From NCBI GenBank assembly GCA_013815535.1, contig JACDGC010000001.1, positions 451 to 64,450 of the forward strand: 64,000 bases of DNA, written 5' to 3'. Source of the DNA: Ktedonobacterales bacterium. GTDB lineage: Bacteria > Chloroflexota > Ktedonobacteria > Ktedonobacterales > JACDGC01. The first letter of the stretch is position 1; each line of letters opens with the position of its first letter. Both the position numbers and the translations under genes were made by a program. Below are positions 6,658 to 61,684 of the stretch, one piece after another. Under the pieces are notes generated by a model, which saw only the letters and a program-made list of their open reading frames with translations, was not told the origin of the DNA and did no database searches.

Positions 6658-6780
6658 GTTGTCACCTCTCGTTTCTTTTGCACACGTAGTGTGCGAGTCA
6701 ATCACTCGCCTTCCTCGTTGAGCGTCGCAACAAAGGTATTCCTTAGAATCCATCAGCACAGGTGCTCACAGGCGTATGTC

Positions 6781-9075: not shown

Positions 9076-9085
9076 GGAAGCTCCT

Positions 9086-31340: not shown

Positions 31341-31351
31341 AGCAGCTTCTT

Positions 31352-31642
31352 TCAGGCACCCAATGCGGTCGAAACCAATTGCGCGATGACATTGGCGGTG
31401 AGCACGATGCCTAGACCAACGAGGGCGCAAATGATGCAGGTTTTGGCGCGATCCAGGGACCGCACGTTGCCGTTGGCGGTCATGTACAAAAAGCCCCCGA
31501 TGAGCACGAAGAACGTTGCGACAACTAATCCCACGCTGGTCCCAATTGTGGTCAGGCTGGTGAAGAACGTGGTAATCGCGGTTTTGAAATCTGCCGGGGC
31601 CGGGGCCGGGGGCACTACGGCAATGATGAGCTGTGCGAACAT
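31352..31642 (-). CDS. VirB2/TrbC-like small membrane protein (candidate pilin)
   Basis: ATG 31642 is preceded by AAGGAG. 96 aa with two long hydrophobic helices (VGLVVATFFVLIGGFLYM, ICALVGLGIVLTANVIA). Confidence 0.4.
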   Translation of the reverse strand: MFAQLIIAVVPPAPAPADFKTAITTFFTSLTTIGTSVGLVVATFFVLIGGFLYMTANGNVRSLDRAKTCIICALVGLGIVLTANVIAQLVSTALGA

Positions 31643-31680
31643 GTGGGAACTCCTTTGGCGGTTGGGAGGACAGTGCCTGA

Positions 31681-33093
31681 TTAGCACGTTGCCCCTTGGT
31701 TGTCATAGCGAGTGAGGTTCAGGGTGGGGTCGCTCAGGAGGTTCGTGAGGGAATCGCCAGGCACACCATCCGCCGTGTAGTGGCTGAAGTCCCAAGGACT
31801 TTGCCCTAACGCGGTGGCTTGCGCGAGTGGCCCTTGTGGCCAGGCGGCGGCGACGCTGGTGTAGTTCCCCATTTTGGTAAAGATGGTGTGGATCTCCACG
31901 CCTTGCTCGGCTGAGTTGGCGTAGGCGAATTGGCCAGGAGAACCCACCTGGCCGGTGCCGCCAATGGTGGGAAAACCGGGGATAGCGGAACTGTTGCCCC
32001 AGTTGTAGCCGGTATACCCTGGCAAGTGCCAGCCTTGTTCAACCCCCCATTGGGCTAACAAGACCGACACATACCAAGGATGGGGTAAAGGTCGCTCCCA
32101 GGGATAGGGATTAGGCATGCCCTGGCCGGGATTGCTCAGTTCCATCTGCTGCGCCAGACGAGCGAAGGGGAGCGCCGCACAGATGAAACGGTGAACGGTA
32201 TTCGCCGTCGGTCGCGATGCCGGTCCCAAATAGCGGATAAAGCCCAATGCGGTGTAGGCGTCGCCGCCGGGCCAGGGCAAGACGTTCAAGTCCGGTTGCG
32301 GAGTAAGGGGCACGCTCGCCGTTGGGGCAAAGGCATTCGCTTGTGCGAAGGTCACCGAGCCCGCCTGGCCATCGGTTGGCGGGGTAACGGCGAGGACGAT
32401 GGCGATATGGCCCGGATCATAGGCGCCGGTGGTCGATGCGGCATGGCTCCAGACGAGCATATCCCCCGGCTGGGGCAATCCGGGACCGATGCCTGGCGTG
32501 CCCGGTTGGGGGCTATGGCCGGCGGGAATGGCGACCCACTCCTTCAGCGTGCGGTAATGGCTCCAAAACGTCACGGCGTCACCTTGGTAAGGCATCGGCA
32601 ACCCCGCCAGGCCATAGGCCGCGATGACCAGACTGACGCATTGAAAATTGCCACTGGCCCAGCCGCTCGCGTCACCGGGATAGGTTTTTTGCAAGAAATC
32701 GACGACGGCCTGGGGCATCGCTCCCGTGGCATTCCCGGTGGTATAGCATTTATCGAAATCCGGCGCGCGCAGCGCCGGGTTGGGATCCCAATGGCCCCCA
32801 CACATCGTGAGATGGGCCGCGATCGTGTGTGCCCACGCGACGACCGAACAGGCCGGGGTTGGCGCTGGGGGAGGCGTCGCGGCGACCGGTGCTGGCGTGG
32901 CTCCTGGCGGGCTGCCGTTGGCGGGTATGGGGGTACATTGCCCCGTGCCGCCGGTGGCTCCTCCCTGATCACTTCCCCCCCCAGCAAACACCGCGATGGG
33001 GATGATGAGGAAAGCGGCACCCAGACAAACGACGAGGGTAATAATGACCAGGAGGCTCAGGAGGCACCCCCCAGTGGCGTTCTTTGCTGGCAT
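31681..33093 (-). CDS. Cell-wall hydrolase: CHAP amidase/peptidase domain plus glucosaminidase-like domain (VirB1/PrgK/TcpG analogue)
   Basis: TM anchor, then CHAP Cys (NFQCVSLVIAAYGL) and His (GDMLVWSH...PGHIAIVLAV). The C-terminal part YVSVLLAQWGVEQGWHLPGYTGYNWGN...FAYANSAEQGVE is glucosaminidase-like. Confidence 0.7.
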   Translation of the reverse strand: MPAKNATGGCLLSLLVIITLVVCLGAAFLIIPIAVFAGGGSDQGGATGGTGQCTPIPANGSPPGATPAPVAATPPPAPTPACSVVAWAHTIAAHLTMCGGHWDPNPALRAPDFDKCYTTGNATGAMPQAVVDFLQKTYPGDASGWASGNFQCVSLVIAAYGLAGLPMPYQGDAVTFWSHYRTLKEWVAIPAGHSPQPGTPGIGPGLPQPGDMLVWSHAASTTGAYDPGHIAIVLAVTPPTDGQAGSVTFAQANAFAPTASVPLTPQPDLNVLPWPGGDAYTALGFIRYLGPASRPTANTVHRFICAALPFARLAQQMELSNPGQGMPNPYPWERPLPHPWYVSVLLAQWGVEQGWHLPGYTGYNWGNSSAIPGFPTIGGTGQVGSPGQFAYANSAEQGVEIHTIFTKMGNYTSVAAAWPQGPLAQATALGQSPWDFSHYTADGVPGDSLTNLLSDPTLNLTRYDNQGATC

Positions 33094-33108
33094 ACGCGTT
33101 CCTTTTCT

Positions 33109-34650
33109 TTACGTGCTGAGCGGTCCGGCATCATCCGGCAGCGCATAGCCACTCCCTTCGATGGTGATGCCCGCGCCGGGACGGGGATCGCTGGATCCAG
33201 GGGAGCCGGTGTAACCGGGGTCGTCGTCGAATCCGGATGAGCCTCCGTCATCGGTGCCTCCGCCGCCAGGGGAAGACCCTGGGCCTGGCAGATAGCCGCC
33301 GAAACCGCCCCCCCCCATACCACCTCCCGATGGTGACGGCAATCCTGGCGCGCCCGAACTGGTCGTCGAGGAAGGCGCGGCCCCCATCTCGGTCACGGTG
33401 GCTCCGCCCCCGCCGCTACCCCCCCCGCCCCCGCCGCCCCCAGCGCCCATGGCCATGGCGGGATTGCCCGTGGCCATCGCCACGCCGATCTGCGCGGCGG
33501 CGGCCAGGACCCCCACTCCACTGGCCACCCCACCGACGGTGCGAAACAACCCGTAGTTGAGCAGAGCCGGCAGGCGAAAGCACAAGTAAAAGGTGGCAAT
33601 CAGGAGGCAGATTTGCAGGAGTACCGTGTTTGGACCCCACACGCCGTCGTTGACGGGAATATTCGTGGCGAGGGTCACCCCCATGGAAATGAGGGTGAGT
33701 TGCAGCGGTTGCAGAATGAGGGTGGCCGTGGTCAATCCGGCCCACCATTCGGTGGCCCGCTGCGTCTGCGGCAACGCCCAGCAAATGATGGCCAGCGGGG
33801 AGATGACGATCAGCAGATCGAGCAGCGCCAGCCGGACGAAAATCTGCAAGATGAGCAGCAGCAGCATGATCTCGTAACAGACGAGGCCAATGCTCCCAAA
33901 GAGGAGAGTCGCGGCGGTATTCGCTCCACTCGGCAGATTGGTCAACTCGGGCGTGAAGAGGGGGGCGACGCCCACAAAATGCATGAAGAGATTGCTTGCC
34001 CCAACGAGTTGGTCGAGCATCCAGAGGCTCAGGTTGGCTCCGAGTGCGCTGATGGCGAAGCGCGGGAAGAACTCAGCGATGTCGTGGTAGGAGAGGCCCA
34101 GAGCTGGGCGCACCATGAGATTGATGCCAGCCACGATCACAATGAGGACCAGGGCGCCATTAGCGATCCACCGCATATCATCGACGAGGGCATGAATGGC
34201 GTCATTCCCCGTGGTCACGCTGGTGGGGGTGTCAAACAGGATGTCATGCGAGAGAAAGCCTGCATTGAAGCCCTGCAGGAGATTTTCACTCCAGGTCAAA
34301 AACCAGTTCGCTCCGCCTACGATGGCGCGCATGAACCAGTAGCAGGGATCGAAATCGTTGCCCAACAGCGAGAACAGCACGCAATGAGGCAGATCCGTCG
34401 TAGGAATCGGATCGGGTGCGGCGGTTTGGCGGGTGGCAGCCCCTTGATAGGTTGCCCCCTGAGGACCCTTGCTGAGGCTGAATGCCGCAGGAGGGGTGTC
34501 GTGGGCGGGTGCTTGCGCCGCGTGTTCGACGGTCAGACCATGGGATGCGATGAGGCCCAGTCCCAGCAGGCAGATGCACAGCCAGAGCGCATGGGGATGA
34601 CGACCGCCCGCCCGATGTGGGGGAGATGTCCGTCGGATGAAGCGTGCCAT
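33109..34650 (-). CDS. VirB6/TrbL-like polytopic membrane protein with a Gly-rich C-terminal tail
   Basis: Preferred start ATG 34650 (GGAGGTG upstream). Multiple TM segments, then a GGGGGGGSGGGG / SPSGGGMGGGGFGG tail. It is the first gene of the T4SS operon. Confidence 0.55.
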   Translation of the reverse strand: MARFIRRTSPPHRAGGRHPHALWLCICLLGLGLIASHGLTVEHAAQAPAHDTPPAAFSLSKGPQGATYQGAATRQTAAPDPIPTTDLPHCVLFSLLGNDFDPCYWFMRAIVGGANWFLTWSENLLQGFNAGFLSHDILFDTPTSVTTGNDAIHALVDDMRWIANGALVLIVIVAGINLMVRPALGLSYHDIAEFFPRFAISALGANLSLWMLDQLVGASNLFMHFVGVAPLFTPELTNLPSGANTAATLLFGSIGLVCYEIMLLLLILQIFVRLALLDLLIVISPLAIICWALPQTQRATEWWAGLTTATLILQPLQLTLISMGVTLATNIPVNDGVWGPNTVLLQICLLIATFYLCFRLPALLNYGLFRTVGGVASGVGVLAAAAQIGVAMATGNPAMAMGAGGGGGGGGSGGGGATVTEMGAAPSSTTSSGAPGLPSPSGGGMGGGGFGGYLPGPGSSPGGGGTDDGGSSGFDDDPGYTGSPGSSDPRPGAGITIEGSGYALPDDAGPLST

Positions 34651-34821
34651 GGTCACCTCCTGGAGCGGAAACCAGTGACAACGTCGACTGGTCACGCTGC
34701 TCAATGACCTACCAGGGTCGGGTAAACAGGGAAGGGGGAGCATGATCCTTCCCTAGCGATCGGCGAGGGGGACATCTCGCTCGAACAGGTGCTGGCACTA
34801 GCGTACCTGGAGAAGGCCCCC

Positions 34822-35566: not shown

Positions 35567-36865
35567 TTAGGCATGAGGAGGAAGCGCCGCCTCCTTTCGA
35601 AATGTGTAGCCATACCCATCGTTGCGATGGATGGGGGTACAATAGCGCGCATGCACTCCCTCTATCACGCCAAATCCTCCCGTGATCTTGAAATATCCAT
35701 CCTTCTTGACTGCCACTCGCCCCACATATGTCCCTGCTGGCTTGCCTTTAGTGACTACTGCACGCACCATATCTCCCGTATGCCACCCTAGGACCGTGCT
35801 CGTCCCTTTGGGGCTGCCAATAGGGAAACCATGCTTATTGACTTTGCGCATCTGTCGGCTATGCCGCCCCGCCGCCTGTATTAGCAACGGACACACATGT
35901 CGCCAGTGGAGGTGCTCAGGTGTACTCTGGCCTATGCAGGAAGCATCCAGCCAATGGGTCTTAGGAATGGCGCGATTGGTCCGATTCCACTTCGTCCTCC
36001 CGCCCGTCCCAGTCTCCACTGGCAATCTCGTTTGCTGCAGGCGCTCATACAGCGCCCAACGGGTACTATTGACCGCCGCTGCGTCCTTCAATGGTTTCTT
36101 GGCTTCTATCTGTACATCGGGATGTCCATATTCGGCCGCAGTGCAGTCACCTTTCTCTTGATTACAGTTGTGGCAGGAAAGGGCAAGGTTGCTGATGCGA
36201 TTGGAACCGCCGCGACTGCGGGGAGTGATGTGATCGACCTCCCATCGTATCGCTTGCACCCCACAATACGCACACCGATATCCCCATTTAAGCAGAAGAT
36301 ATTCCCGCGCTTCCCATCCTGCCAACGTACCTTGCTGGTATTCGATACCACTGATATCCGGGCGTTCGATGAGTTGGGTGTCGAAGCGGACTAACTCATA
36401 TGAGATATTTGTGATAGGAGCATATCGACGCAAACGCTCGACCCACGTCACCACATTTTGAATACGACTAAGGAGCGACGGCGGGAGCCATCCTTCCGGG
36501 CGTCTCCGATTATCGAAACGAGGTTGGCGATAGCGTGTATGCCGGTGTCGCCGCCCGCGCCGTTGAGCCTGCCGCGTGTCCAGCGCCTCCTTTACCTGTC
36601 GTCCACGATGGGCGAGTTCCGCTGCCCATATCACTTCTCCCGTTGCATCGTTGACCATCACTATCCCCGTCGTTTGGCTACCCGGATCAATCTTGACCCG
36701 CAATGGAGGAGTGACGTACTCAGATGGGGGCTGTTTCAGGATGATCGTAAAAGGATATCTCCGCAATATCGCTGCCCGCTTCTGCGTAAGAAGCCACCGC
36801 GCCCGCGCCGGACGGCATGGACTCAAGGGTATTTTCTCTGGACTGACGACCAAGACTCGTTGCAT
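35567..36865 (-). CDS. iscB: IscB: RuvC/HNH RNA-guided endonuclease of the IS200/IS605 superfamily (Cas9 ancestor)
   Basis: PLMP-type N-terminus (VLVVSPEKIPLSPCRPARARWLL...YPFTIIL), RuvC-I KIDPGSQTTGI, Arg-rich bridge (QRRGRRHRHTRYRQPRFDNRR), RuvC-II ISYELVRFD, HNH CAYCG...EVDHITPRSRGGSNRISNLALSCHNCNQEKG, RuvC-III KTHWLDASC, and the C-terminal ...HRNDGYGY. The preferred start is ATG 36865. Confidence 0.85.
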   Translation of the reverse strand: MQRVLVVSPEKIPLSPCRPARARWLLTQKRAAILRRYPFTIILKQPPSEYVTPPLRVKIDPGSQTTGIVMVNDATGEVIWAAELAHRGRQVKEALDTRQAQRRGRRHRHTRYRQPRFDNRRRPEGWLPPSLLSRIQNVVTWVERLRRYAPITNISYELVRFDTQLIERPDISGIEYQQGTLAGWEAREYLLLKWGYRCAYCGVQAIRWEVDHITPRSRGGSNRISNLALSCHNCNQEKGDCTAAEYGHPDVQIEAKKPLKDAAAVNSTRWALYERLQQTRLPVETGTGGRTKWNRTNRAIPKTHWLDASCIGQSTPEHLHWRHVCPLLIQAAGRHSRQMRKVNKHGFPIGSPKGTSTVLGWHTGDMVRAVVTKGKPAGTYVGRVAVKKDGYFKITGGFGVIEGVHARYCTPIHRNDGYGYTFRKEAALPPHA

Positions 36866-37264
36866 TGAGCTTTCTTCTTTCCCTTGCGGGAGCCTCTTAA
36901 ATAGAGGCACATCTGCTTGCGCAGGTAAGGTTCCCCTCGTCAATGTTCTCCGAAGGTTTGTGTGTTGGCAGCACTGGCCTTCCCAATCGACCTATTTAAC
37001 CACCACCCGCAGCGCAAGGGACTGAGGTGCTATCCCTTGGTGCCTATCTATTCTTCGGGAACGGAGTCCTTGCGAACTGAGACTGGTCAGCAGCAGGACT
37101 TGTTTTCACAAGCCCCCGCCTTTTGGCGTGGGGTCGCTGACAGCCGCCATATCACCCATCCCATCTGGTGCTGAACTCCCGTCACGTTGCCACGGCGAGC
37201 GCGCCATGAGTCGCGAGGATCGGTACTCACGTGCTTCAGAGAGGTCACACGGGTCTCCGTAGCT
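36866..37264 (-). ncRNA. Candidate IscB omega-RNA (guide plus scaffold) in the iscB 5' region
   Basis: A roughly 400-nt stretch with no credible ORF lies directly upstream of iscB and is rich in local hairpins on the minus strand: ccccacgcc-aaaa-ggcggggg, cttg-tgaaaa-caag, caaggga...tcccttg, and gcctct-attta-agaggc just before the start codon. The position matches known IscB loci. The ends are not determined. Confidence 0.45.
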
Positions 37265-51362: not shown

Positions 51363-52625
51363 CTAACGCACTTGCACGTGCGGGATCTCGGCCCATTGGG
51401 TGAGGGCGCGTGGGGAGCGATAATCCCCCTTGCTGGCCCAGGGCCGCGCGAAGCCCGTGCCGAGGTAGCGTATCGCCTCACGACCGAATCGCTGGCAAAT
51501 CGCATCCAGGGTCATCATCAATTGTCGCTCGCGTGCCGACGGGAAATGGGGCGCGAAGAGGGTGCCCTGGGCCGGGTCCTCGGCCACGAACTCCCGCAAA
51601 GCGATACCGACTCGATGGAACGGATAGGGGCGATAGATGCGCTCCAGGCCGCCCAGCGCTGCGGCAAGGATGGTGGGGGTGTACGCTGTCGGGCGGTCGA
51701 GGCGAATGGTGATGCTGTTGCTGTACTGTGGCTCGCGTTTGCGAAAGGGATTGGTGGCCACATGGACACTGATCAGTCCGGCACAACGGTGCTCGGCGCG
51801 CAGTTTCTCACAGGCGCGCGCCGTGTAGAACGACAAGGCTTCGCGCAGCTGCTCCACCTCGGTGACGGGGCGACCAAAGGCGCGCGACACGAGGATCTCC
51901 TGCTTCGTGGCCCTGGCCGTGATCAGGGGGAAAGCAGGCTGACCGCGTAATTCGAGCTGAGTCCGGGCCGAAACGACGGAGAGGTGTTGACGAATCCACC
52001 AGGTGGGGGCATTCGCAAACGCCTGCGCTGTGGTGATGCCCTGGTGCTTGAGCCAGCTGCTCTTGCGGGAACCCAGCCCCCAAACATCCTCCACCGACAA
52101 CGTTGCTAGCAGGTCGTCGATCTCCGTCGGTGTCGTCACGGCATAGACCCCTGTGGTCTGTTTCGCGCGCTCGATGGCCGCCTTGGCCAGGGTCTTGGTT
52201 GGGCCGATACCGAGTGAGGTGCGGATCCCCGTCCAGGTGGCCACGGTCTTCTTGATGAGCTGGCCGTAAGCGTCGGCGGTGCGGGGGTCGATATGTTCCA
52301 TTGACATAAATACTTCGTCACAACTATATTCTTCCAGGCTAGGTGTGAAATGGGAGCAGGACCAGACGAGGCGACGACTCATCACCTCGTAGGTGGGCCA
52401 GCAGCCGCTGCGCGCGATGAGGGTGCCCGCGTTGATGAGGGGAGCCAGCTCATGGCGCGGCGTCGTCATCTTAATTCCTAATAATTTTGCTTCCTTGCTC
52501 CGCGCGATGACATTTCCATCATTGTTTGAGAGGACCACGACCGCTTTGCCGCGCAAGCGCGCATCGAGTAACTGTTCCGTTCCCGCGAAGAAATTGTCGC
52601 CATCTGCCACACCAATAAGACTCAT
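51363..52625 (-). CDS. umuC: Y-family DNA polymerase, UmuC-like (Pol V catalytic subunit)
   Basis: GKAVVVLSNNDGNVIARSKEAKLLGIKM, YSCDEVF and IGPTKTLAKAA closely parallel E. coli UmuC motifs. Its start overlaps the stop of the UmuD-like gene. Confidence 0.85.
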   Translation of the reverse strand: MSLIGVADGDNFFAGTEQLLDARLRGKAVVVLSNNDGNVIARSKEAKLLGIKMTTPRHELAPLINAGTLIARSGCWPTYEVMSRRLVWSCSHFTPSLEEYSCDEVFMSMEHIDPRTADAYGQLIKKTVATWTGIRTSLGIGPTKTLAKAAIERAKQTTGVYAVTTPTEIDDLLATLSVEDVWGLGSRKSSWLKHQGITTAQAFANAPTWWIRQHLSVVSARTQLELRGQPAFPLITARATKQEILVSRAFGRPVTEVEQLREALSFYTARACEKLRAEHRCAGLISVHVATNPFRKREPQYSNSITIRLDRPTAYTPTILAAALGGLERIYRPYPFHRVGIALREFVAEDPAQGTLFAPHFPSARERQLMMTLDAICQRFGREAIRYLGTGFARPWASKGDYRSPRALTQWAEIPHVQVR

Positions 52626-53059
52626 TATTCAGCCTCCCAAGCTCGGCGCGGAACGGTATGCAGAATATGCGTCACGACCCCGAACAGGAGCGTGCTATCT
52701 TCGAGGGGGATGGGGGTGCTGCCTTCCGTGTCGGCCACCAGGTACCAGCGCCCATCACGACGTTTGAGCCACCGTACGATGAATTCCTCCGCATCGATGG
52801 CGACGACGAGTGTGCCATTGCTGAATGGTTCCACGCGGTCAATGATGAGGATGTCCCCCTCCAAAATTTGGACCGTCTCGGTGCTGACACCCGTAGCGCG
52901 AAAATAAAAGACGGCATGGGGATGTTTGACCACGAGGTCGTGCAGATTCAGCTCGCGTTCCTGATGCTCGCTTGGTTGGCTAGTAAAGCCCGTTTTCGGG
53001 CGGGACGGGGGGAGCGGATTGTCGGACGCGCCCGCCTGGCCGAGCGGATCAAGCGGCAT
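52625..53059 (-). CDS. umuD: UmuD-like S24 peptidase
   Basis: FRATGVSTETVQILEGDILIID (compare GDSM...GD.v.VD; Ser retained, Met replaced) and the Lys region FIVRWLKRRDG. A possible Ala-Gly cleavage site is present (LGQAGAS). Confidence 0.7.
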   Translation of the reverse strand: MPLDPLGQAGASDNPLPPSRPKTGFTSQPSEHQERELNLHDLVVKHPHAVFYFRATGVSTETVQILEGDILIIDRVEPFSNGTLVVAIDAEEFIVRWLKRRDGRWYLVADTEGSTPIPLEDSTLLFGVVTHILHTVPRRAWEAE

Positions 53060-54332: not shown

Positions 54333-55361
54333 TCATAGCACGAAATGCCATGCAAGTAGACTTCGATCACCGCCAGCAACGAAGTATTTTTCATCAGTCG
54401 TCCAACGAATCCGCGTGAGTTCTTCGCCGAATTCAAGCACTTGGTGTTCTCGCAGAGTCGCTACATCCCAGAGACGAATGGTGTCGTCGTCCCCACCTGA
54501 TGCTATCCAGCGTCCATCGGGGGACCAGGCCACTGCCGTAATCGTTGAGCGGGTACCGCTATGGCCAGGAAAGATCGCTAAGGCATCTTCTTTATAAGGG
54601 GGAGCAAATTCATATTGGCGCATATGTTGAGCGACATGAGCGGGGCCTGGACCAGCTTTCCAAATCTGGAGATTATAGCTCGTCTCCCCCGAGCCTTTAT
54701 CCGTCCTTCCTCCTACCACAAGCGCAGAGCTATCCGGATGCCAAGCTATGGCTTGTATCCTGAATTGCGCATTGTAGTACCTCCGTAAGATGGTATTGCC
54801 GGTGTGACTATCCCAAATTTGTAGGGTGTCATCATCACTGAGTGAGGCAACACGCGTACCGTCAGGGGAAGGTGCCAGCACCAACGCAGGTTTTCTGTGA
54901 CCTTTATAAGTGAGAACCACGGTACCTGTGCTGGCCTTTGCTAAACAGACCACGCCTTCTTTTTCGTCTGGGTAAAAGCGATTATACAGCAAACGCTGCC
55001 CATCAGCGGTGAGGGCACAGACCTGGCAATCATAAGCGAGGATAGAGTAATAAAAGCGCAAGCTGTCTTGGGGAACCTGATAGGCATGCATATCACGGCG
55101 TGAGCTGTTTATCACCAACAGCGTTTGCGGTGACTCCCAAAGTAAGGTCCTAGACCAGAAAGGGGGGTGATTGAGCCTATCTTCATGCATCATGATCACT
55201 GCCCCTGTCGCGAGATCGGCGACATAAAAGTGCTGATCATACGCATTGGCGAAGGCGAGCCTTTGATTATCTGGAGTAATATCCCAACTGTTGATGTAGG
55301 CTTCGTGTGGCGCACGCAAATCCACGGAAAAGATCGCATCCTGTGTCGTGAAATGGCCCAT
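54333..55361 (-). CDS. WD40-repeat beta-propeller protein
   Basis: Repeats ending in ...SPDGTRVASLSDDDTLQIWD and ...SPDGRWIASGGDDDTIRLWD. The preferred start is ATG 55361 (MGHFTTQ). Confidence 0.75.
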   Translation of the reverse strand: MGHFTTQDAIFSVDLRAPHEAYINSWDITPDNQRLAFANAYDQHFYVADLATGAVIMMHEDRLNHPPFWSRTLLWESPQTLLVINSSRRDMHAYQVPQDSLRFYYSILAYDCQVCALTADGQRLLYNRFYPDEKEGVVCLAKASTGTVVLTYKGHRKPALVLAPSPDGTRVASLSDDDTLQIWDSHTGNTILRRYYNAQFRIQAIAWHPDSSALVVGGRTDKGSGETSYNLQIWKAGPGPAHVAQHMRQYEFAPPYKEDALAIFPGHSGTRSTITAVAWSPDGRWIASGGDDDTIRLWDVATLREHQVLEFGEELTRIRWTTDEKYFVAGGDRSLLAWHFVL

Positions 55362-55461: not shown

Positions 55462-57183
55462 TCACTCGAAAAGGTGGGGCGGTTCGGGCAAAGGAGGCGG
55501 CGTGCGACCATAGCCGGGATCAAAGGGCCAATCGTTGCGATGCGAAGCGGCCACCGCCTCACGGTCGCACTCGTTATTTAATTGGTCGGTCGCATGTCCT
55601 TGGACCTTTGCGAAGGCCACCTGATGCTGATCGAGCAACGGGATCAGTCGTTCGAGCAAATCCCAGTTGGGCACCGCGACATGACCACTCTGCCACCAGT
55701 GCCGTTGTTGGAGTTCCCGACAGTTCTTCGCTGCGGCGATGACATACGTCGAGTCGGTATAGACGGTGACGACGCAGGGCATCTTGAGCGCTTCCAATCC
55801 CAGCAGCACCGCGCTGAGTTCGGCGCGATTATTGGTCGAACGGGCATAGCCTCCGGTGAGGATGCGGCGGCGCTCTCCTGCGAGTAAAATGGAACAGAAG
55901 CCAGCCACGCCGGGGTTGCCACGGCAGGCGCCGTCTGTATAAAGCGTTACGGTTGGTTGGTGGGGTGTTGTCATGAGCAGTTCTTCCTGATGCGAGGTGT
56001 TCGTTTCGTCCCCCCAGCGGATCGCGGTCTCGCCAAAACGTGATTTGAGCTGGGAAAGGGTTGCGGCGAGTTGGGTGTCGCGGGTCAAGCGCGCGGCAGT
56101 CTGCGGCTGCCAGAGGTCGAGTTGGGGGGTGAGTTCCCCAATTTGGTCGACGCCCAGGCCAATGAGGCGCACGGGAGCGGCCTTCTGATGCCAAAGCGTA
56201 TTGAAGAGGTCGAGGGCCGCGTTGGTAACGGTCGCTTCCTCATAGGTGGGGGCTGCGAGGGCGACTTGGCGGGTGAGCGTCACGAAGTCGGCCCAGCGTA
56301 CCTTGATGCGGACGACCTTCCCTTGTTGACCCAGGGTCCATAGCCGTCGGCTCACGGCGCGCGCCTGACGCCGGATCTGTTGGGTCAGAACCTGCGGATC
56401 AGTGATATCGGCGGTGAAGGTCCGTTCTTGACTGACTGACTGCCGTTGCCTTCCTATCTCGACATCGCTGGTATCGTGCCCGCGACTGAGCGCTGCGAGC
56501 GGTAGGCACCAGCGACCAAAGGTGTGGAGCAGGTCGGCGTCGTTCCATTGCGCCAGATCGCTAATCGTGCGGATGCCTTGTTGGCGTAAGCGGATGGCGG
56601 TTTGCGGCCCGACGCCGAACAGGGTGTCGATGGGCAGTGGCGCGAGGAAAGCCGCTTCAGTACCAGCGGGGACAATGGTGATGGCATTGGGCGGTTGCCC
56701 TTTGGTCGCTTGCGACTTACCCGTGTCTGCTGCCATTTTTGCGGTGGCTCTTCCTTGTGCGATGCCAAGGGAGCAGGGCAAGCCTAAGGTATCGCGGATG
56801 TAGGTCTGAATCTGCTCGGCGAGGGCGGTTTTCTCCATCGCGATATGCTCGATACGGAACACCCCTTCATCCACGCTGCGCTGCTCGAAGAGGGGCGACC
56901 AGGTGCACAGATACTCCATGACTCTTCGTGACGCCTGTTGATAGCGCGTGAAATGGGGCGGCACGATGCGCAGCTCAGGGCAGAGGCGCACGGCTTGCGC
57001 CATCGGCATCGCGGAACGGACGCCACGGGCACGGGCGGCATAGGACGCCGAGGCGACGACGCCGCGTTGATCAGGCTGGCCACCGACGGCGACCGTCTGG
57101 CCGTGCAGGGAGGGGTTGTAGCGCTCCTCAACGGCGACAAAGAAGTTGTCTAAGTCAAGATGGGCAAATCGCTTACTTGGCAT
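55462..57183 (-). CDS. dinB: DinB (Pol IV, Y-family polymerase) fused in frame to RNase HI
   Basis: The N-terminal part is HLDLDNFFVAVEERYNPSLHGQTVAVGG...RGVVASASYAARARGVRSAMPM...SVDEGVF (DinB motifs). The C-terminal 170 aa (55462-55974) is VTLYTDGACRGNPGVAG...TNNRAELSAVLLGLEAL...VTVYTDSTYV...KVQGHATDQLNNECDREA (RNase HI DEDD motifs). There is no stop between the halves. Confidence 0.85.
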   Translation of the reverse strand: MPSKRFAHLDLDNFFVAVEERYNPSLHGQTVAVGGQPDQRGVVASASYAARARGVRSAMPMAQAVRLCPELRIVPPHFTRYQQASRRVMEYLCTWSPLFEQRSVDEGVFRIEHIAMEKTALAEQIQTYIRDTLGLPCSLGIAQGRATAKMAADTGKSQATKGQPPNAITIVPAGTEAAFLAPLPIDTLFGVGPQTAIRLRQQGIRTISDLAQWNDADLLHTFGRWCLPLAALSRGHDTSDVEIGRQRQSVSQERTFTADITDPQVLTQQIRRQARAVSRRLWTLGQQGKVVRIKVRWADFVTLTRQVALAAPTYEEATVTNAALDLFNTLWHQKAAPVRLIGLGVDQIGELTPQLDLWQPQTAARLTRDTQLAATLSQLKSRFGETAIRWGDETNTSHQEELLMTTPHQPTVTLYTDGACRGNPGVAGFCSILLAGERRRILTGGYARSTNNRAELSAVLLGLEALKMPCVVTVYTDSTYVIAAAKNCRELQQRHWWQSGHVAVPNWDLLERLIPLLDQHQVAFAKVQGHATDQLNNECDREAVAASHRNDWPFDPGYGRTPPPLPEPPHLFE

Positions 57184-57432: not shown

Positions 57433-57867
57433 ATGGCACGTGTATTGGTGATGGCCTGTTCAGCGACAAAGCTGGCGACAGATATTCCGGTGATGGCCTA
57501 TGAACTTTACAAAGGTGTATTTTGGGCCGTGCTGCATAAGCAATATCTCCACTGGTCGGACCTCGGTCCTCTGGATCTCCGGATCATCTCCGCCGAATAT
57601 GGCCTGTTGCACCCAACGACCCTAGTATCCCCCTATGAACGCCGGATGACTTTTGAGCGAGCGAAAGACCTGCAACCAGCGGTGAGCGTTGCGCTGCTCC
57701 CCTTTGCCGATGCGTCAGATGTGTTCCTGTGTTGTTCACCGGTGTACCGCGCGGCAATCAACGTCAACTGGCACTATCCGCCTACCATTCCACACGGAGG
57801 GATCGGTCAACAAATGCGCCAATTGAAAGATTGGTTGACCAATGATGCGTTGCGGCGGTCCCAGTAA
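57433..57867 (+). CDS. hypothetical protein (144 aa)
   Basis: ATG 57433 (MARVLVMACSATKLATDIPVMAYELYKGVFW) is preceded by GGGGAG. The family is not confidently recognised. Confidence 0.4.
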   Translation: MARVLVMACSATKLATDIPVMAYELYKGVFWAVLHKQYLHWSDLGPLDLRIISAEYGLLHPTTLVSPYERRMTFERAKDLQPAVSVALLPFADASDVFLCCSPVYRAAINVNWHYPPTIPHGGIGQQMRQLKDWLTNDALRRSQ

Positions 57868-57924: not shown

Positions 57925-59469
57925 TTAGTCGTGAACGTCCTCTGTCGGCCAAATATAAAGCGGTCCATGACTTGTCCCAGCCGCGAGCCGCTTTCCATCA
58001 GGAGCAAAGGCCAGAGATTCTACGCGGTTGGGATAGGGGAAGCCGCGAAACAGCGGAGCATCATCGGGGTATCGTACATAATTTGGGTTCCCAGAATAGC
58101 GCGAATCATCAACAACGAACGAGCGCGTGATACGTCCCGTCTGTATTTCCCAGATATGCGCGCCACCCGTTCCACCCACCGCGAGCAGGTCCCCCTTCGG
58201 CGACCAAGCCATCGCACAATCGTCGCTATATCGTGCCTCAATTAACTGAGGTGGCATACGGTATTGTGGGCGTAATGTACTGGCTTGCATGATTTCCACG
58301 CCATGATAGGCATTGATCGTCTCCCCAAATCGAGCACTCATGGCGATCAGATAGCTCCCTGGAGACCATAGCAGCATTTTTGGCGAATAGCTGTGTCTCC
58401 AGGGAAGTTGCCGTCCAACGATTGTCGTGCGATCAAACGCATTCCACACGTGTAACTGCGGCTTCGCAGTTTGCTCTGTTCCAACAGAAGCAATACGCGA
58501 ACCATCTGGCGACCACGCGACGACATCCACCTGAGTCGATGCGCCATCTCGTTTCTGTTTTGTAGCGTGGGCTGGTGGTGTACTGGCTCCTGGTTGTGTA
58601 TGTCCGTAATAGCCACTCGCTGCAGATTTGAAGTTTTGTGCCACCTGCACGATACGCCCGTAAGCTCCCCCCATAACCAAATAACGCCCATCCGGTGAGA
58701 AACTGGCAGAGCGCACTGTCTCGGGGTAAGCATGCCCAGCAACTTGGTGACGGTGGGGAATATCCCAAACGACAACGTTCCCTTCACCTCCGACCAAAGC
58801 GACGAGGTGAGGTGCTCGCTCAATGAGGGCAAAGGAGGTAATGAGTATATCGCCAGCGAGGGTGAAGGGATCTTCTTCTTGGTTGGTATTGATATTCCAA
58901 ACATGACACGCATTCTCCCCATCAACCACGGCCAACACGTAGGCGCCGTCGCCGGTCCAACCAACTTGGTTGACATAGCGATTGAGCCTCAACTGATGCA
59001 AGGCGTCCGCAGGTGTGAGAACAATTGATCCTTGAATGCGGGCATCGCGCAACTGGCGAGCATATCCTACCTGACCTTGGACTGCGGCGGTGAGCGCTTC
59101 AATTCCTCGTTCAACCGTCATCGTGGTTAGATTGAGGTAGAAGACGATGGAAATCCATGGTGGCGGGTTACAGGGTTGTAAGATGACAGGGAGGAATACG
59201 CGGCTTTGATCCTTTTCGGCAAGATGCAAGAACTCTTGAATTTCACGCATGACTGGTACAGATTCGAGGGCCGCTGGCGATAAAAAAGCGATCAAGGTAT
59301 TGTTTTGCGTCAGTGCTGTCGTAATGGCTTCAAAAAGGGACGCTCCGACGGGCAATGAGTCTTGGTCATACCACACTGAGAAGGTGCGACGCAGGGCCGC
59401 AACATAGCGAGACACCAGGGGAATGGCGGCTTCTGCATGACTCACAAAGAGCGTTTTTTCCGGTTCCAT
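57925..59469 (-). CDS. TIR-domain protein fused to a WD40 beta-propeller
   Basis: The N-terminus LFVSHAEAAIPLVSRYVAALRRTFSVWYDQDSLPVGASLFEAITTALTQNNTLIAFLSPAALESVPVMREIQEF fits the bacterial TIR_2 pattern, including the S...E segment. It is followed by WD40 repeats (VAWSPDGSRIASVG, MAWSPKGDLLAVGG, LAFAPDGKRLAAGTSHG). No NTPase domain lies between them. The preferred start is ATG 59469. Confidence 0.7.
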   Translation of the reverse strand: MEPEKTLFVSHAEAAIPLVSRYVAALRRTFSVWYDQDSLPVGASLFEAITTALTQNNTLIAFLSPAALESVPVMREIQEFLHLAEKDQSRVFLPVILQPCNPPPWISIVFYLNLTTMTVERGIEALTAAVQGQVGYARQLRDARIQGSIVLTPADALHQLRLNRYVNQVGWTGDGAYVLAVVDGENACHVWNINTNQEEDPFTLAGDILITSFALIERAPHLVALVGGEGNVVVWDIPHRHQVAGHAYPETVRSASFSPDGRYLVMGGAYGRIVQVAQNFKSAASGYYGHTQPGASTPPAHATKQKRDGASTQVDVVAWSPDGSRIASVGTEQTAKPQLHVWNAFDRTTIVGRQLPWRHSYSPKMLLWSPGSYLIAMSARFGETINAYHGVEIMQASTLRPQYRMPPQLIEARYSDDCAMAWSPKGDLLAVGGTGGAHIWEIQTGRITRSFVVDDSRYSGNPNYVRYPDDAPLFRGFPYPNRVESLAFAPDGKRLAAGTSHGPLYIWPTEDVHD

Positions 59470-59638
59470 CGCGCGGGTCCTCACTCTCGATCCACAACTG
59501 AATCGCTTCACGTACATCAGCCTGGCGAAGATGTACTCACTTGGTAGAATGCACAAGGGTCTTCCGATATTGTACGCATGTTAGGCAAGCGGATGTATAT
59601 AATGAGAGAACAGTAGAGAAGCATTTGGAGGCGAACTG

Positions 59639-60325
59639 ATGAATCCGTTTTTACGCTACCAGTATGACTGTAGCCAAACGCTGAATGGACTCGATGCTGA
59701 ATTACGATTAGCTGAGCCTGGAAACCCGCTAGATCCTCATTTACGTGCGGCCGCTATCCTAGGTTGTCGCTTTTTAGGACGCATGGTTAATGATCCTGAT
59801 TTTAATCGCGATCTTCAGTTTTTCTTCTCGAATGCTGTTCCACGGAGGCAAACGCTGGGTACGCAGCGAGATGCTGAAAGTCTTTCCCAGTTTGATTTGT
59901 TTTTGAATCTAGAACGCGAACTACTCGAACGAACTGGTTTGGAGGCCAATCTTATTGACGGAGCAATCAACGCTATTCGCGAGGCCACTTTTTATGGCGG
60001 TTCAGTAACAGAAATGATAGCTGGTATTCAATTGCTGCAGCAGCACACGTGCTTGGCTAGCACCATGCTGACTCAACCTGAGGATTTTGCACCAGTTGGT
60101 CCTCCACCTGAACAAGTCCAGGCGATCCTCCAACGACGTGGAACCGGGATACAGGGCTATTTGCTGTTACTTGAAACGGCTTTGATGGGCATCGTCGTGA
60201 TCGGAGCCAATGCTTCGGCCACCCAACTTTCAACTTTTGGGCAGACCATGTCTGGAGAATTGGGTATTGCTTTGCTTTCATCAATGATTGCAAAGGCAGT
60301 GGATGCGGCAAACACGTTTTCCTAG
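59639..60325 (+). CDS. hypothetical protein with a C-terminal hydrophobic region, in a lower-GC patch
   Basis: 228-aa ORF divergent from the TIR-WD40 gene. GYLLLLETALMGIVVIGA and LGIALLSSMIA are hydrophobic. Confidence 0.4.
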   Translation: MNPFLRYQYDCSQTLNGLDAELRLAEPGNPLDPHLRAAAILGCRFLGRMVNDPDFNRDLQFFFSNAVPRRQTLGTQRDAESLSQFDLFLNLERELLERTGLEANLIDGAINAIREATFYGGSVTEMIAGIQLLQQHTCLASTMLTQPEDFAPVGPPPEQVQAILQRRGTGIQGYLLLLETALMGIVVIGANASATQLSTFGQTMSGELGIALLSSMIAKAVDAANTFS

Positions 60326-60524: not shown

Positions 60525-60935
60525 TTGCGATCGTGTTGGGTCTGTGAAAGTTTGATCCAGTGGGCAGCGAGCGAGAGCGCGTGTAGTGAACGCTGCCGTC
60601 GGTTGTTGTGGGCCGAATCGTATCGCATCGACCGTATCCGCGAGGAGTCGCGGCGCAAGGGTCATCGCGCTGATATTACCCTGGAGCAGTGGGCACGCGT
60701 GATTCGCTTCTTCAATGGCGTCTGTGCCTATTGTGGTGCGCCGTTTGACACGGCTGACCATGTTGTCCCATGTCATCTTGGCGGTCCAAGTACGGCCGCG
60801 AACCTGATCCCCGCCTGTTTTGCCTGCAATGTCGCCAAAGGGGGACGTCGCTTCGAAGAGGTGGACGACCTGCCGCCAGTGGGAAGGACACGGGTGCAGG
60901 CATATGTCGTGTGGGTGGAGGGACTAGGGCGATGA
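60525..60935 (+). CDS. HNH endonuclease
   Basis: CAYCGAPFDTADHVVPCHLGGPSTAANLIPACFACNVAKG is the HNH core with flanking Cys pairs. The start is TTG in the track and is uncertain. Confidence 0.7.
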   Translation: MRSCWVCESLIQWAASESACSERCRRLLWAESYRIDRIREESRRKGHRADITLEQWARVIRFFNGVCAYCGAPFDTADHVVPCHLGGPSTAANLIPACFACNVAKGGRRFEEVDDLPPVGRTRVQAYVVWVEGLGR

Positions 60936-61684
60936 GCGAATCGTCTGCACCTCCGCCGGGTGCTTCCGCTGAGGAGCTGCGCACACGTGCCCACGAGTTG
61001 GCCGATCAATTGGGGGAACGGCGCGGTGGACCACGCTGGCAGATCGTGCAAGTGGTGCGGATCCTGGGCATCGAACGCACCCAGGAGTTGGTCACTACGG
61101 CGCTCGCTCAGGCGGCTCAAGGAGGGGAGCTGACGCGTGATGGGCAGCGCCAGCGCACGACGGGAGGCATCTTCTTCCAGTTGGTACGCCAATTGACCAC
61201 GAAGCATCCTCGCCTTGCGCGCATGTTTATGGCGCATCCCCCGAAACCAGAGGGAGCGAAAGCCACACCGCCACCTCTCCCCCCGCCACCGGCGCGTTGG
61301 GAAGATCGGCTGGCGGCACTTGCGGAGATCACCGAGGACGGAAGGGCACGCACCATGAAGCTGACCTTGACAGGGCGACCGGGTACTGTAGTGGACAAAG
61401 GCACGTACATCTTGACCACCATGCCCGCCCAAAAGATGCCGGCCTTCCCCAAAGGCTTGCCCGCGTTGCCGCCGGATGTGCAACCACCGCAGACCGTGGT
61501 GATGGTGGCGAAGAAGCAGTGGCAGCGCGTCGAGGCGGCCCTGAGTGATCCGGAGGATATGCTGGTGCTCGAAGGTTTCGCCATGTATGAGCCATCAGTC
61601 AAAGGGTTGGTGGTGTTGGCAATGAATGTCACGACGAGTCAGCAGCAGCGCGACAAACGCGCGGCGACACCCCCTTCCGACTAG
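60932..61684 (+). CDS. PHAX-like (RNA_GG_bind-type) RNA-binding domain protein
   Basis: ATG 60932 overlaps the HNH stop (ATGA). IVQVVRILGIERTQELVTTALAQAAQGGELTRDGQRQRTTGGIFFQLVRQL matches the PHAX RNA-binding domain pattern (...GG..t.dG.r.RT.GGvFf.L). Confidence 0.45.
   Translation: MSESSAPPPGASAEELRTRAHELADQLGERRGGPRWQIVQVVRILGIERTQELVTTALAQAAQGGELTRDGQRQRTTGGIFFQLVRQLTTKHPRLARMFMAHPPKPEGAKATPPPLPPPPARWEDRLAALAEITEDGRARTMKLTLTGRPGTVVDKGTYILTTMPAQKMPAFPKGLPALPPDVQPPQTVVMVAKKQWQRVEAALSDPEDMLVLEGFAMYEPSVKGLVVLAMNVTTSQQQRDKRAATPPSD

What the first reader, a model, noticed from the sequence alone, without database searches (positions are those of the whole stretch)
57925..60325. TIR-WD40 protein without an NTPase module, paired divergently with a membrane-tailed unknown protein in a lower-GC patch
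The protein encoded by 57925-59469 (515 aa from the preferred ATG at 59469) begins with a bacterial TIR-like domain. The domain contains a glutamate in the conserved segment (PVMREIQEF), possibly at the position where catalytic TIR NADases carry their active-site Glu. The protein continues directly into a multi-blade WD40 propeller. This is a sensor-effector layout reminiscent of STAND/Avs-like immune proteins but lacking the central ATPase.

The divergent neighbour (59639-60325) is an unknown 228-aa protein with a hydrophobic C-terminus. Both genes, the second WD40 gene and the genes between them look visibly more A/T-rich than the flanks, which suggests horizontal acquisition. A candidate minimal TIR-based defence or signalling pair is plausible but unproven.
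Basis: partly seen in the sequence, partly recalled or inferred. Interest (0 to 1): 0.6.

Follow-up and report, generated by a model that had tools for sequence, protein, structure and literature searches.

The report
NTPase-less TIR–WD40 protein on conjugative element
A soil Ktedonobacterales bacterium carries, on a conjugative DNA element, a gene that joins an apparently active TIR (NAD-cleaving immune) domain directly to a 7-bladed WD40 propeller with no ATPase switch; this is probably a one-protein sensor-effector, but its membrane-tailed neighbour is not a conserved partner and the architecture already exists in databases.

Summary
The ORF at 57925-59469(-) encodes 514 aa: a TIR_2 domain (58.3 bits, cut-off 28), a ~32-residue linker and a confidently modelled 7-bladed WD40 propeller. 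No NTPase fits in the linker or is encoded nearby. E76 (PVMREIQEF) aligns with the mutation-tested Cat1 active-site residue E74. S10, H11, D35 and S70 also match Cat1 active-site residues.

The protein is an orphan: one cluster, NCBI MBA3822320.1, Ktedonobacterales MAG. NTPase-less TIR-WD40 proteins do exist elsewhere (P0068; P0036 has an added TM segment).

The 228-aa neighbour is real. It belongs to a small unannotated family with a helical bundle, two invariant Cys and a Gly-rich hydrophobic tail. Only 2 of 8 informative family contexts have a TIR gene next door. Others include a zwf-opcA operon. A dedicated two-gene system is therefore poorly supported.

The setting is the cargo region of a conjugative element, not a recognisable defence island. 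The three low-GC3 genes (0.42-0.52, backbone 0.70-0.78) look separately acquired.

Best reading: a single-chain TIR NADase activated by ligand-templated clustering, as in Swarozyc. This is inferred, not shown. It is a new member of a known kind, of moderate-to-low interest.

The parts
57925..59469 (-). TIR-WD40 gene (514 aa; NCBI MBA3822320.1, annotated 'toll/interleukin-1 receptor domain-containing protein', Ktedonobacterales MAG)
   Evidence: ORF. Domains. Identity to the NCBI protein. GC3 0.515. A GAGG motif lies about 11 nt upstream of the ATG (sequence).
59101..59448 (-). TIR domain (residues 8-123)
   Evidence: Pfam TIR_2 at 58.3 bits, cut-off 28. A profile search against PDB hits AaTIR, AbTIR, 7uxr, Cat1 and SARM1. 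The AF2 model of this part has low confidence (pLDDT 28-60), so the fold is not confirmed by structure.
59242..59244 (-). Codon of E76, the candidate catalytic glutamate
   Evidence: It aligns with Cat1 E74, whose alanine substitution abolished Cat1 toxicity in vivo (PMC12162218). It is invariant in the three TIR-WD40 proteins. Coordinates checked.
59005..59100 (-). Linker of ~32 residues (124-155) between the TIR domain and the propeller; too short for any NTPase module
   Evidence: Domain limits. pLDDT is below 50 for residues 125-155.
57940..59004 (-). 7-bladed WD40 beta-propeller (residues ~156-510) with two loop insertions (residues ~276-311 and ~453-481)
   Evidence: AF2 pLDDT is about 90 with about 29 strands. 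The best Foldseek match is 5yzv, a prokaryotic 7-blade WD40 (E=3e-18, TM-score 0.85 normalised to the target); 7-bladed designer propellers also match.
59470..59638 (.). 169-bp divergent intergenic region between the two genes
   Evidence: Sequence. No sigma-70 consensus site was found by the scan. A GGAGG motif lies 8 nt upstream of the 228-aa gene's ATG.
59639..60325 (+). 228-aa protein (MBA3822321.1, 'hypothetical'). It is a member of a small unannotated family with an N-terminal helical bundle, two invariant Cys (C43, C138) and a C-terminal Gly/Ala-rich hydrophobic tail
   Evidence: The word-based search finds only itself. The exhaustive phmmer finds 8 relatives at 25-34% identity. Alignment. 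The AF2 bundle, residues 10-145, has pLDDT 82-95 except one loop at ~61-80 (52-62). No PDB fold match. GC3 0.424.
60146..60319 (+). Hydrophobic tail of the 228-aa protein (residues 170-227): one clear TM-like segment (170-193) and a weaker second helix (200-227)
   Evidence: Kyte-Doolittle peak of 1.81. Helices 171-188 and 200-227 in the model, at low pLDDT. Sequence. The Gly-rich motif is conserved in the family.
54333..55361 (-). Second, WD40-only gene (342 aa from the ATG), also low in GC3 (0.504). It shows only repeat-level similarity to the TIR-WD40 propeller
   Evidence: Pfam WD40 at 101 bits. BLASTP 27% identity, E=8e-8. Gene call. GC3.
57433..57867 (+). DUF6884 / DpdC-like small gene, convergent with the TIR-WD40 gene (57-bp gap)
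   Evidence: Pfam DUF6884 at 32.7 bits. PADLOC DpdC 7.9e-8 and PDC-M57A 1.2e-6. phrog_5935.

Best explanation
The gene encodes a single-chain sensor-effector. A 7-bladed WD40 propeller, the ligand-binding module, is tethered by a short flexible linker to a TIR domain that keeps the residues needed for NAD+ cleavage.

Proposed mechanism:
1. TIR NADases are active only when TIR domains are packed against each other. There is no STAND ATPase here to drive oligomerisation.
2. Activation therefore most likely comes from ligand-templated clustering. Several propellers would bind an oligomeric or repetitive target, for example a phage or mobile-element structural protein.
3. This would bring the TIR domains together to form composite active sites.
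4. E76 would then catalyse NAD+ cleavage, leading to NAD+ depletion or an ADP-ribose-derived signal, and so to growth arrest.

The gene is compositionally foreign cargo on a conjugative element of a Ktedonobacterales bacterium. It is probably a stand-alone conflict or immunity gene. The 228-aa neighbour is most likely an independent, separately acquired membrane-anchored protein.

Shown: the domain content, the absence of an NTPase, the conserved active-site residues, the propeller, the cargo context and the lack of a conserved partner.
Inferred: NADase activity, the activation mode and the immune role.
For: - TIR_2 at 58.3 bits and WD40 hits.
- PDB profile hits to proven NADases AaTIR, AbTIR, Cat1 and SARM1.
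- Five of the seven same-subunit Cat1 active-site residues are conserved: S7/H8/D33/S68/E74 correspond to S10/H11/D35/S70/E76 (alignment plus PMC12162218).
- E76 is invariant in the three TIR-WD40 proteins.
- The propeller is confidently modelled with 7 blades.
- Only about 32 residues lie between the domains, and no NTPase was found in the window's larger ORFs.
- The same NTPase-less architecture occurs in P0068.
- Mechanistic precedent: Swarozyc, a TIR-like NADase without an NTPase, is switched on by assembling on the phage portal (bioRxiv 10.64898/2026.05.01.722283).
- WD40 propellers are a recognised sensor type of defence-associated STAND proteins (PMC13581612).
- The gene is cargo of a conjugative element (T4CP, VirB4, PrgI, CHAP, TrbL, relaxase) with foreign GC3.
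Against: - There is no experimental or comparative evidence of defence. PADLOC gives only weak domain-level TIR hits (best 6.9e-7) and no system. No defence island surrounds the gene.
- The protein is a singleton with no close homologues, so conservation, diversifying selection and co-occurrence cannot be measured.
- The aromatic residue four positions before the Glu (Trp in Cat1 'WCWDEL') is Pro here. Cat1 N9 and N10 are Ala and Glu here.
- The AF2 model of the TIR part is unreliable.
- Ktedonobacteria are, from general knowledge, rich in WD40 proteins with non-immune roles.
Confidence: 0.45

Rival explanations
1. A non-immune signalling or scaffolding protein. The TIR domain acts as a protein-protein interaction module, or as a regulated NAD-consuming switch in development or programmed cell death. 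The propeller binds an endogenous partner. On this reading it is one of many WD40 paralogues of a filamentous, developmentally complex bacterium and happens to sit on a mobile element.
For: - A second, WD40-only gene lies 2.5 kb away.
- There is no defence-island context and no PADLOC system.
- The neighbours are DNA-damage tolerance genes (UmuC/UmuD-like, DinB-RNase H), not defence genes.
- P0068's neighbours are SufE and a DUF433/PIN pair. P0036's neighbour is a PEGA protein.
Against: - The active-site residues are conserved, which is not expected for a pure adaptor TIR.
- The gene is compositionally foreign cargo on a conjugative element, which is more typical of accessory conflict genes than of core signalling.
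Confidence: 0.25
2. A two-gene TIR system. The TIR-sensor protein makes an NAD-derived signal that activates the divergently encoded 228-aa protein, a membrane-disrupting effector. This would be analogous to TIR plus 2TM-SLATT systems or to type II Thoeris.
For: - The two genes are divergent and adjacent, 169 bp apart, and both have low GC3.
- The neighbour has a helical domain plus a conserved Gly-rich hydrophobic tail.
- A second family member, P0123, lies next to another NTPase-less TIR-sensor protein (TIR_2 + FGE-sulfatase, 464 aa).
- TIR effectors are reported to co-occur with 2TM SLATT genes (PMC7159879).
Against: - Six of eight informative contexts of the family have no TIR gene within reach. 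They include an in-operon position between zwf and opcA.
- The orientation differs between the two TIR cases: divergent here, convergent with a 645-bp gap in P0123.
- GC3 differs between the two genes (0.42 against 0.52).
- No member gives a SLATT, Macro, SLOG or any other Pfam hit, and there is no PDB fold match.
- The other TIR-WD40 proteins show no such neighbour on their short contigs (2.9 and 3.8 kb).
Confidence: 0.12
3. One component of a split, ternary-type conflict system. Its oligomerising NTPase (STAND, MoxR-vWA or a GTPase) would be encoded elsewhere in the genome and act in trans.
For: - TIR effectors are common parts of multi-gene NTP-dependent conflict systems in multicellular bacteria (PMC7159879 and PMC8195603).
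- The window covers only 64 kb of a MAG.
Against: - No STAND, MoxR, vWA or effector-associated adaptor domain was detected in the protein or in the window genes scanned.
- In the published systems the components are encoded in one conserved gene neighbourhood.
Confidence: 0.08
4. A decaying or inactive remnant. This would be a TIR-NLR-like gene that lost its NTPase by deletion and is no longer functional.
For: - It is a singleton with no close relatives.
- It has atypical composition.
- The Trp position before the Glu is not conserved.
Against: - The reading frame is intact at 514 aa with a plausible ribosome-binding site.
- The gene is identical in two independent assemblies.
- The propeller is complete and closed with 7 blades.
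- The active-site residues are retained.
- Independent NTPase-less TIR-WD40 proteins exist.
Confidence: 0.1

Closest known systems
TIR-STAND / TIR-NLR-type immune receptors (bacterial TIR-NB-ARC/NACHT with WD40 or TPR repeats; plant TNLs; Avs-like proteins)
   Same: An N-terminal TIR effector and a C-terminal repeat sensor. The WD40 propeller is a recognised STAND sensor type (PMC13581612; PMC9153377).
   Different: The defining central P-loop NTPase is absent. Only about 32 residues separate the TIR domain from the propeller. The PADLOC TIR-NLR model matches only the TIR part, at E=0.018.
Swarozyc (DUF4062 TIR-like NADase plus auxiliary domain)
   Same: A single polypeptide with no NTPase and a TIR-type NADase fused to a target-binding domain. 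It is activated by assembling on an oligomeric phage protein, the portal. This is the closest functional analogy.
   Different: The catalytic domain belongs to a different family (DUF4062, not TIR_2; there is no DUF4062 hit). The sensor domain is also different, not a WD40 propeller. There is no evidence that this protein binds a portal.
Cat1 (CARF-TIR) and other ligand-activated bacterial TIR NADases (TIR-SAVED, ThsB, AbTIR/AaTIR)
   Same: These are the best sequence matches of the TIR domain. The active-site residues S, H, D, S and E are shared with Cat1.
   Different: Their sensor modules (CARF, SAVED) bind cyclic nucleotides made by a partner enzyme. Here the fused module is a protein-binding propeller, and no partner cyclase or CRISPR system is nearby.
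Other database TIR-WD40 proteins (P0068, 457 aa; P0036, 537 aa, with a TM segment between TIR and WD40)
   Same: The domain order is the same, there is no NTPase, and the Glu is conserved.
   Different: Identity is only 22-24% overall and 26-33% within the TIR domain. P0036 has a transmembrane segment between the domains. Their genomic contexts are unrelated.
SLATT 2TM effectors / type II Thoeris ThsA (comparison for the 228-aa neighbour)
   Same: A small protein with a helical domain plus a pair of hydrophobic helices, encoded next to a TIR gene.
   Different: No sequence match to SLATT, Macro or SLOG in any of the 9 members. The domain order is reversed, with the hydrophobic helices at the C-terminus. 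Most family members are not TIR-linked.

Membership tests
TIR domain (Pfam TIR_2, PF13676) | Profile match above the curated cut-off over the whole domain | tested here: met
   58.3 bits against a cut-off of 28; profile positions 2-118 of 122.
TIR domain (catalytic NADase subclass) | Glutamate at the start of helix alpha-C at the catalytic position | tested here: met
   E76 aligns with Cat1 E74, the 7uxr 'YEL' Glu and the PdTIR 'KEL' Glu. Cat1 E74A is inactive in vivo (PMC12162218). E76 is invariant in alignment A4.
TIR domain (catalytic NADase subclass) | Other active-site residues (Cat1 S7, H8, N9, N10, D33, S68) | tested here: inconclusive
   S10, H11, D35 and S70 are conserved. N9 and N10 are replaced by A12 and E13. 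The Trp at position -4 is Pro72.
TIR domain | Flavodoxin-like alpha/beta fold | tested here: inconclusive
   The AF2 model of residues 1-125 has pLDDT 28-70 because only 3 sequences cover the region.
TIR domain (catalytic NADase subclass) | NAD+ cleavage activity | not testable with these tools
   This needs a biochemical assay.
STAND / NLR-like (TIR-NLR, Avs, bNACHT) | Central P-loop NTPase (NB-ARC, NACHT or other STAND) between the effector and the repeats | tested here: not met
   The linker is about 32 residues. No NTPase family is hit in Pfam, NCBIfam or PADLOC.
STAND / NLR-like | C-terminal repeat sensor | tested here: met
   A 7-bladed WD40 propeller.
Thoeris | A ThsB-type TIR with an adjacent ThsA (SIR2-SLOG, or Macro with TM helices) | tested here: not met
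   The ThsB model gives only a partial hit at E=1.7e-4. The neighbour has no SIR2, SLOG or Macro hit.
SLATT 2TM effector (for the 228-aa neighbour) | Match to SLATT profiles; two TM helices followed by a cytoplasmic helical domain | tested here: not met
   No Pfam hit at E<=10 in any of the 9 family members. The hydrophobic helices are C-terminal.
Swarozyc (DUF4062) | DUF4062 catalytic domain | tested here: not met
   DUF4062 is not among the Pfam hits. The resemblance is mechanistic only.
Conserved two-gene module (TIR-sensor plus 228-aa family) | Co-occurrence of the two gene families across genomes | tested here: not met
   A TIR neighbour occurs in 2 of 8 informative contexts of the 228-aa family. 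In 0 of 2 contexts of other TIR-WD40 proteins is there a 228-aa family neighbour, but those contigs are only 2.9 and 3.8 kb. The sample is small.
Defence island | Known defence systems in the neighbourhood | tested here: not met
   PADLOC scans of 18 window proteins give only generic domain hits (SNF2, HNH, DpdC-like). The surroundings are conjugation and DNA-damage-tolerance genes.

The most novel reading that the evidence does not exclude
NTPase-less 'TIR + sensor' proteins (TIR-WD40 here; TIR-FGE-sulfatase next to the homologue P0123) work together with the adjacent member of the new Cys-pair helical-bundle, Gly-rich membrane-tail family. The TIR product would gate a membrane effector, and the sensor domains would be swappable. 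This would be a previously undescribed two-gene TIR immune module.
Probability: 0.1. Interest if true: 0.7.

Novelty: new member of a known kind. Interest (0 to 1): 0.35.

Why it matters
If the protein is an active NADase, it would be a compact natural example of a TIR effector controlled by a WD40 propeller without any STAND ATPase. That would support the idea, so far shown for Swarozyc, that target-templated clustering alone can switch on TIR-type enzymes. It would also extend carriage of TIR immunity genes to conjugative elements of Chloroflexota.

As it stands it is an uncharacterised singleton with a catalogued domain architecture. Its value is as a candidate for biochemical testing rather than as a discovery in itself.

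The 228-aa neighbour defines a small, unannotated membrane-tail protein family that may deserve separate study.

Tried and rejected
1. A word-based homologue search with the TIR domain alone (residues 1-150) returned nothing, not even the protein itself. That search was wasted.
With P0123 against metagenomes, and with the DinB-RNase H fusion against genomes, it found no relatives. The related TIR-FGE neighbour sequence and related conjugative elements could therefore not be retrieved.
3. I designed a degenerate DNA pattern for the family motif FxxFLx[LIV]E. It recovered all known members.
   - A tighter pattern on metagenomes gave 1 true member.
   - IMG/VR gave none.
4. The AF2 model of the full protein modelled the propeller well but not the TIR domain, so the Glu position could not be checked in 3D.
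6. A Bell-domain / amyloid-motif pairing (bioRxiv 10.1101/2020.01.06.895854) was considered and rejected. The Bell domain has an N-terminal hydrophobic helix and pairs with NLRs through shared motifs, which is not seen here.
7. Flanking repeats that might bound an inserted cassette: none convincing.
8. A phage origin: no PHROG support for either gene, and no tblastn hit of the TIR domain in phage genomes.
9. A consensus sigma-70 promoter in the divergent intergenic region: none found.
Full report
**1. What is there**

The ORF at 57925-59469 on the minus strand is real. The longer TTG-initiated version adds 29 residues with no support. NCBI's own gene call is the 514-aa form, MBA3822320.1, 'toll/interleukin-1 receptor domain-containing protein', from a Ktedonobacterales MAG.

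- Pfam places TIR_2 on residues 8-123 at 58.3 bits (cut-off 28, E=1.4e-15), covering positions 2-118 of the 122-position model.
- WD40 and beta-propeller families cover about residues 156-510.
- About 32 residues (124-155) connect the two domains.
- No NTPase family appears in Pfam, NCBIfam or PADLOC.

The title claim, TIR-WD40 without an NTPase, is therefore correct and far beyond chance.

**2. Is the TIR domain likely to be catalytic?**

- Single-sequence phmmer of residues 1-150 against PDB finds Cat1 (7.5e-5), 7uxr (4.9e-4) and PdTIR.
- A three-sequence profile (this protein, P0036, P0068) raises this to AaTIR 2.4e-13, AbTIR 5.9e-13, 7uxr 1.7e-12 and Cat1 2e-9. TIR-APAZ, SARM1 and MyD88 follow. 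The TAL-effector rows in that table have no significant individual stretch and are repeat artefacts.
- In every alignment, E76 of 'PVMREIQEF' (59230-59256) falls on the Glu of the W/Y-x-x-E-L motif.
- The Cat1 paper lists S7, H8, N9, N10, D33, S68 and E74 as lining the NADase site. It shows E74A to be inactive in vivo (PMC12162218).
- By the alignment these correspond to S10, H11, A12, E13, D35, S70 and E76. Five of seven are conserved, including the Glu.
- Differences: the Trp four residues before the Glu is Pro72, and the two Asn are not kept.
- E76 is invariant among the three TIR-WD40 proteins.
- A 3D check failed. The AF2 model built on a WD40-dominated alignment gives pLDDT 28-70 for the TIR part.

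The fold and the Glu position therefore rest on profile alignments, which are strong, and not on a structure.

**3. The propeller**

Residues ~160-510 are modelled at pLDDT about 90, with about 29 strands and two low-confidence loop insertions (~276-311 and ~453-481). Foldseek's best PDB match is the 7-bladed prokaryotic WD40 of Thermomonospora curvata (5yzv, E=3e-18, TM-score 0.85 normalised to the target). Designed 7-blade propellers follow.

**4. Relatives**

- In 5.8 billion clustered proteins the next-best hit after the protein itself scores 102 bits and covers only WD40 repeats. The cluster has a single member. The gene is a sequence orphan.
- The same architecture does exist elsewhere. 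P0068 (457 aa) is TIR-linker-WD40. P0036 (537 aa) is TIR-TM-WD40. Both have the Glu.
- Their contigs are short and their neighbours unrelated: SufE and a DUF433/PIN pair for P0068, and a PEGA protein for P0036.
- From general knowledge, TIR fused to WD40 or TPR repeats has long been catalogued in actinobacteria and cyanobacteria. Reviews describe the NBD-containing version in bacteria (PMC9153377).
- I found no paper that characterises an NTPase-less TIR-WD40 protein.

**5. The neighbour (59639-60325, +, 228 aa; MBA3822321.1)**

- It has no hit in Pfam, PADLOC, NCBIfam or PHROGs, and only itself in the word-based search.
- The exhaustive phmmer over 1.84 billion representatives finds eight relatives of 164-259 aa at 25-34% identity.
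- The alignment shows invariant A38, C43, L46, F55, F85, F88, L89, E92, G100 and C138. It also shows a shared C-terminal Gly/Ala-rich hydrophobic segment.
- AF2 with this alignment gives a helical bundle for residues 10-145, mostly at pLDDT 82-95, with one low-confidence loop at ~61-80. It gives two low-confidence terminal helices, 171-188 and 200-227.
- Hydrophobicity peaks at 1.81 over residues 170-193.
- Foldseek finds no PDB relative (best E=0.6). None of the nine members hits any Pfam family consistently, and none hits SLATT.

The 'unknown protein with a hydrophobic C-terminus' is confirmed. It is a member of a small, real, unannotated family.

**6. Are the two genes a conserved pair?**

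I collected every genomic context I could obtain for the family.

| Family member | Context |
|---|---|
| Window gene | TIR-WD40, divergent, 169-bp gap |
| P0123 (48.8-kb JGI contig, gene table only) | 464-aa TIR_2+FGE-sulfatase protein, convergent, 645-bp gap; also pentapeptide-repeat, sigma-70 and eCIS genes |
| P0127 (two contigs) | Unknown genes, a DAO oxidoreductase and FtsH |
| P0126 | A SNase-Excalibur nuclease |
| P0128 | Unknown genes and a PadR protein |
| L025 (Pyrinomonadaceae MAG) | Same strand, between zwf and opcA, followed by glk and pgl |
| L020 (Anaerolineaceae MAG) | About 1 kb from an HsdR-like gene |
| L156 (metagenome contig, 9.2 kb) | No TIR gene |

- The last three members came from a degenerate DNA pattern I designed for the family motif.
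- A local TIR HMM finds no TIR ORF in any of the DNA-bearing flanks.
- The tally is 2 of 8 with a TIR neighbour. One of the two is the discovery locus itself.
- The second case is intriguing because it is again a TIR fused to a sensor-type domain without an NTPase. FGE-sulfatase and WD40 are both listed as sensor types of defence STAND proteins (PMC13581612).
- With different orientation, different spacing, and six unlinked contexts including a housekeeping operon, an obligate partnership is not supported.
- The two window genes also differ in GC3 (0.42 against 0.52).

**7. Setting**

The window is a conjugative element.

- It carries a Replic_Relax relaxase-like gene, a TrwB-type coupling protein, a VirB4/TraG ATPase, PrgI, a CHAP hydrolase, TrbL-like, RecD2 and SNF2-DUF3670 genes.
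- The finding lies in the cargo end. Nearby are a UmuC/UmuD-like pair, a DinB-RNase H fusion, a WD40-only gene, a DUF6884/DpdC-like gene, an HNH gene, a PHAX-like protein and a sigma factor.
- PADLOC scans of 18 proteins yield only generic domain hits. This is not a defence island.
- GC3 is 0.515 (TIR-WD40), 0.424 (228-aa gene) and 0.504 (WD40-only gene), against 0.72-0.78 for the backbone.
- DinB-RNase H, which lies between the two WD40 genes, has GC3 0.70. The low-GC genes are individual inserts in a mosaic, not one patch.
- No bounding repeats were found.
- The same arrangement, with identical proteins, appears in two other assemblies. These add no independent evidence.

**8. Mechanism**

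Shown: the domain content, the missing NTPase, the retained active-site residues, the closed propeller, the mobile-element cargo status and the absence of a conserved partner.

Inferred: TIR NADases need TIR-TIR packing to form their active site. Cat1, for example, uses residues from two TIR domains. With no ATPase to drive assembly, the simplest model is that the propeller binds an oligomeric target and the target templates TIR clustering. Swarozyc provides a direct precedent: a TIR-like NADase without an NTPase becomes active by assembling on the phage portal. I put this at about 0.45.

| Rival explanation | Probability |
|---|---|
| Non-immune scaffold or signalling role | 0.25 |
| Two-gene system with the membrane-tailed neighbour, analogous to TIR plus 2TM SLATT (PMC7159879) | 0.12 |
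| Decayed remnant | 0.10 |
| Trans-acting NTPase elsewhere in the genome | 0.08 |

**9. Verdict**

- The 'sensor-effector without ATPase' reading is supported at the level of sequence.
- The 'minimal pair' and 'defence context' readings are not supported.
- The protein is already annotated as a TIR-domain protein, and the architecture recurs in databases. It is therefore a new, very divergent member of a known kind, functionally untested.
- Interest is moderate to low (0.35).
- The most novel reading still open is a TIR-sensor plus membrane-tail module. I give it a probability of about 0.1.

Noticed in passing
window 35567-37141 (-): An IscB-type OMEGA element. A 458-aa ORF (35567-36943) hits Pfam RRXRR at 228.7 bits plus HNH. 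A HEARO RNA (RF02033, 131 bits, full length) lies directly upstream at 36925-37141. It sits in a low-GC patch (35-38 kb, GC about 0.55) of the conjugative element.
   Followed up: partly
window 55462-57183 (-): A Y-family DNA polymerase IV (IMS + IMS_C) fused at its C-terminus to a complete RNase HI domain (573 aa). A separate UmuC-like/UmuD-like pair lies at 51363-53059, so the same conjugative element carries two translesion polymerases. No relatives were found by the peptide-pattern scan of GTDB genomes.
   Followed up: partly
L025 3321-4028 (-) (Pyrinomonadaceae MAG, DASQLL010000437.1): A homologue of the 228-aa protein is encoded inside an oxidative pentose-phosphate operon. It lies on the same strand between zwf (G6PD) and opcA, followed by glk and pgl. 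Together with the family's two invariant cysteines, this hints at a redox or metabolic role rather than an immune one.
   Followed up: partly
window 22590-34743 (-): A Gram-positive-type conjugation module: Replic_Relax protein, TrwB-like coupling protein, VirB4/TraG-like ATPase, PrgI, CHAP hydrolase and TrbL-like protein. RecD2 (19019-21223) and SNF2-DUF3670 (1889-5110) lie nearby. The whole window is therefore an ICE or plasmid of a Ktedonobacterales MAG.
   Followed up: partly
window 60932-61684 (+): A bacterial protein matches the eukaryotic PHAX RNA-binding domain (PF10258) at 53.6 bits against a cut-off of 25. The match was obtained on the longer 60770-61684 ORF and recurs in the precomputed Pfam hit for the 250-aa gene call; it is followed by a Pro-rich region.
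   Followed up: no
L003 552-2165 (P0036): A variant TIR-WD40 protein with a predicted transmembrane segment between the TIR domain and the propeller. This would place the two domains on opposite sides of the membrane.
   Followed up: no
JGI sample 3300047160, 48.8-kb contig (no DNA available), genes at 6559-7275 and 7920-9314: A 464-aa TIR_2 + FGE-sulfatase protein, which is another NTPase-less TIR-sensor fusion, lies next to P0123, a homologue of the 228-aa protein. A pentapeptide-repeat protein, an eCIS_core protein and a Cas1 fragment are also on the contig.
   Followed up: partly
window 6781-9075 (-): A single long ORF combines an MFS transporter with a UbiA prenyltransferase domain (764 aa). 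It lies next to another low-GC patch at 5-7 kb.
   Followed up: no
L013 127-764: P0125 (164 aa) looks like a frameshifted member of the 228-aa family. Its missing C-terminal hydrophobic part is encoded in another frame at 567-764.
   Followed up: no
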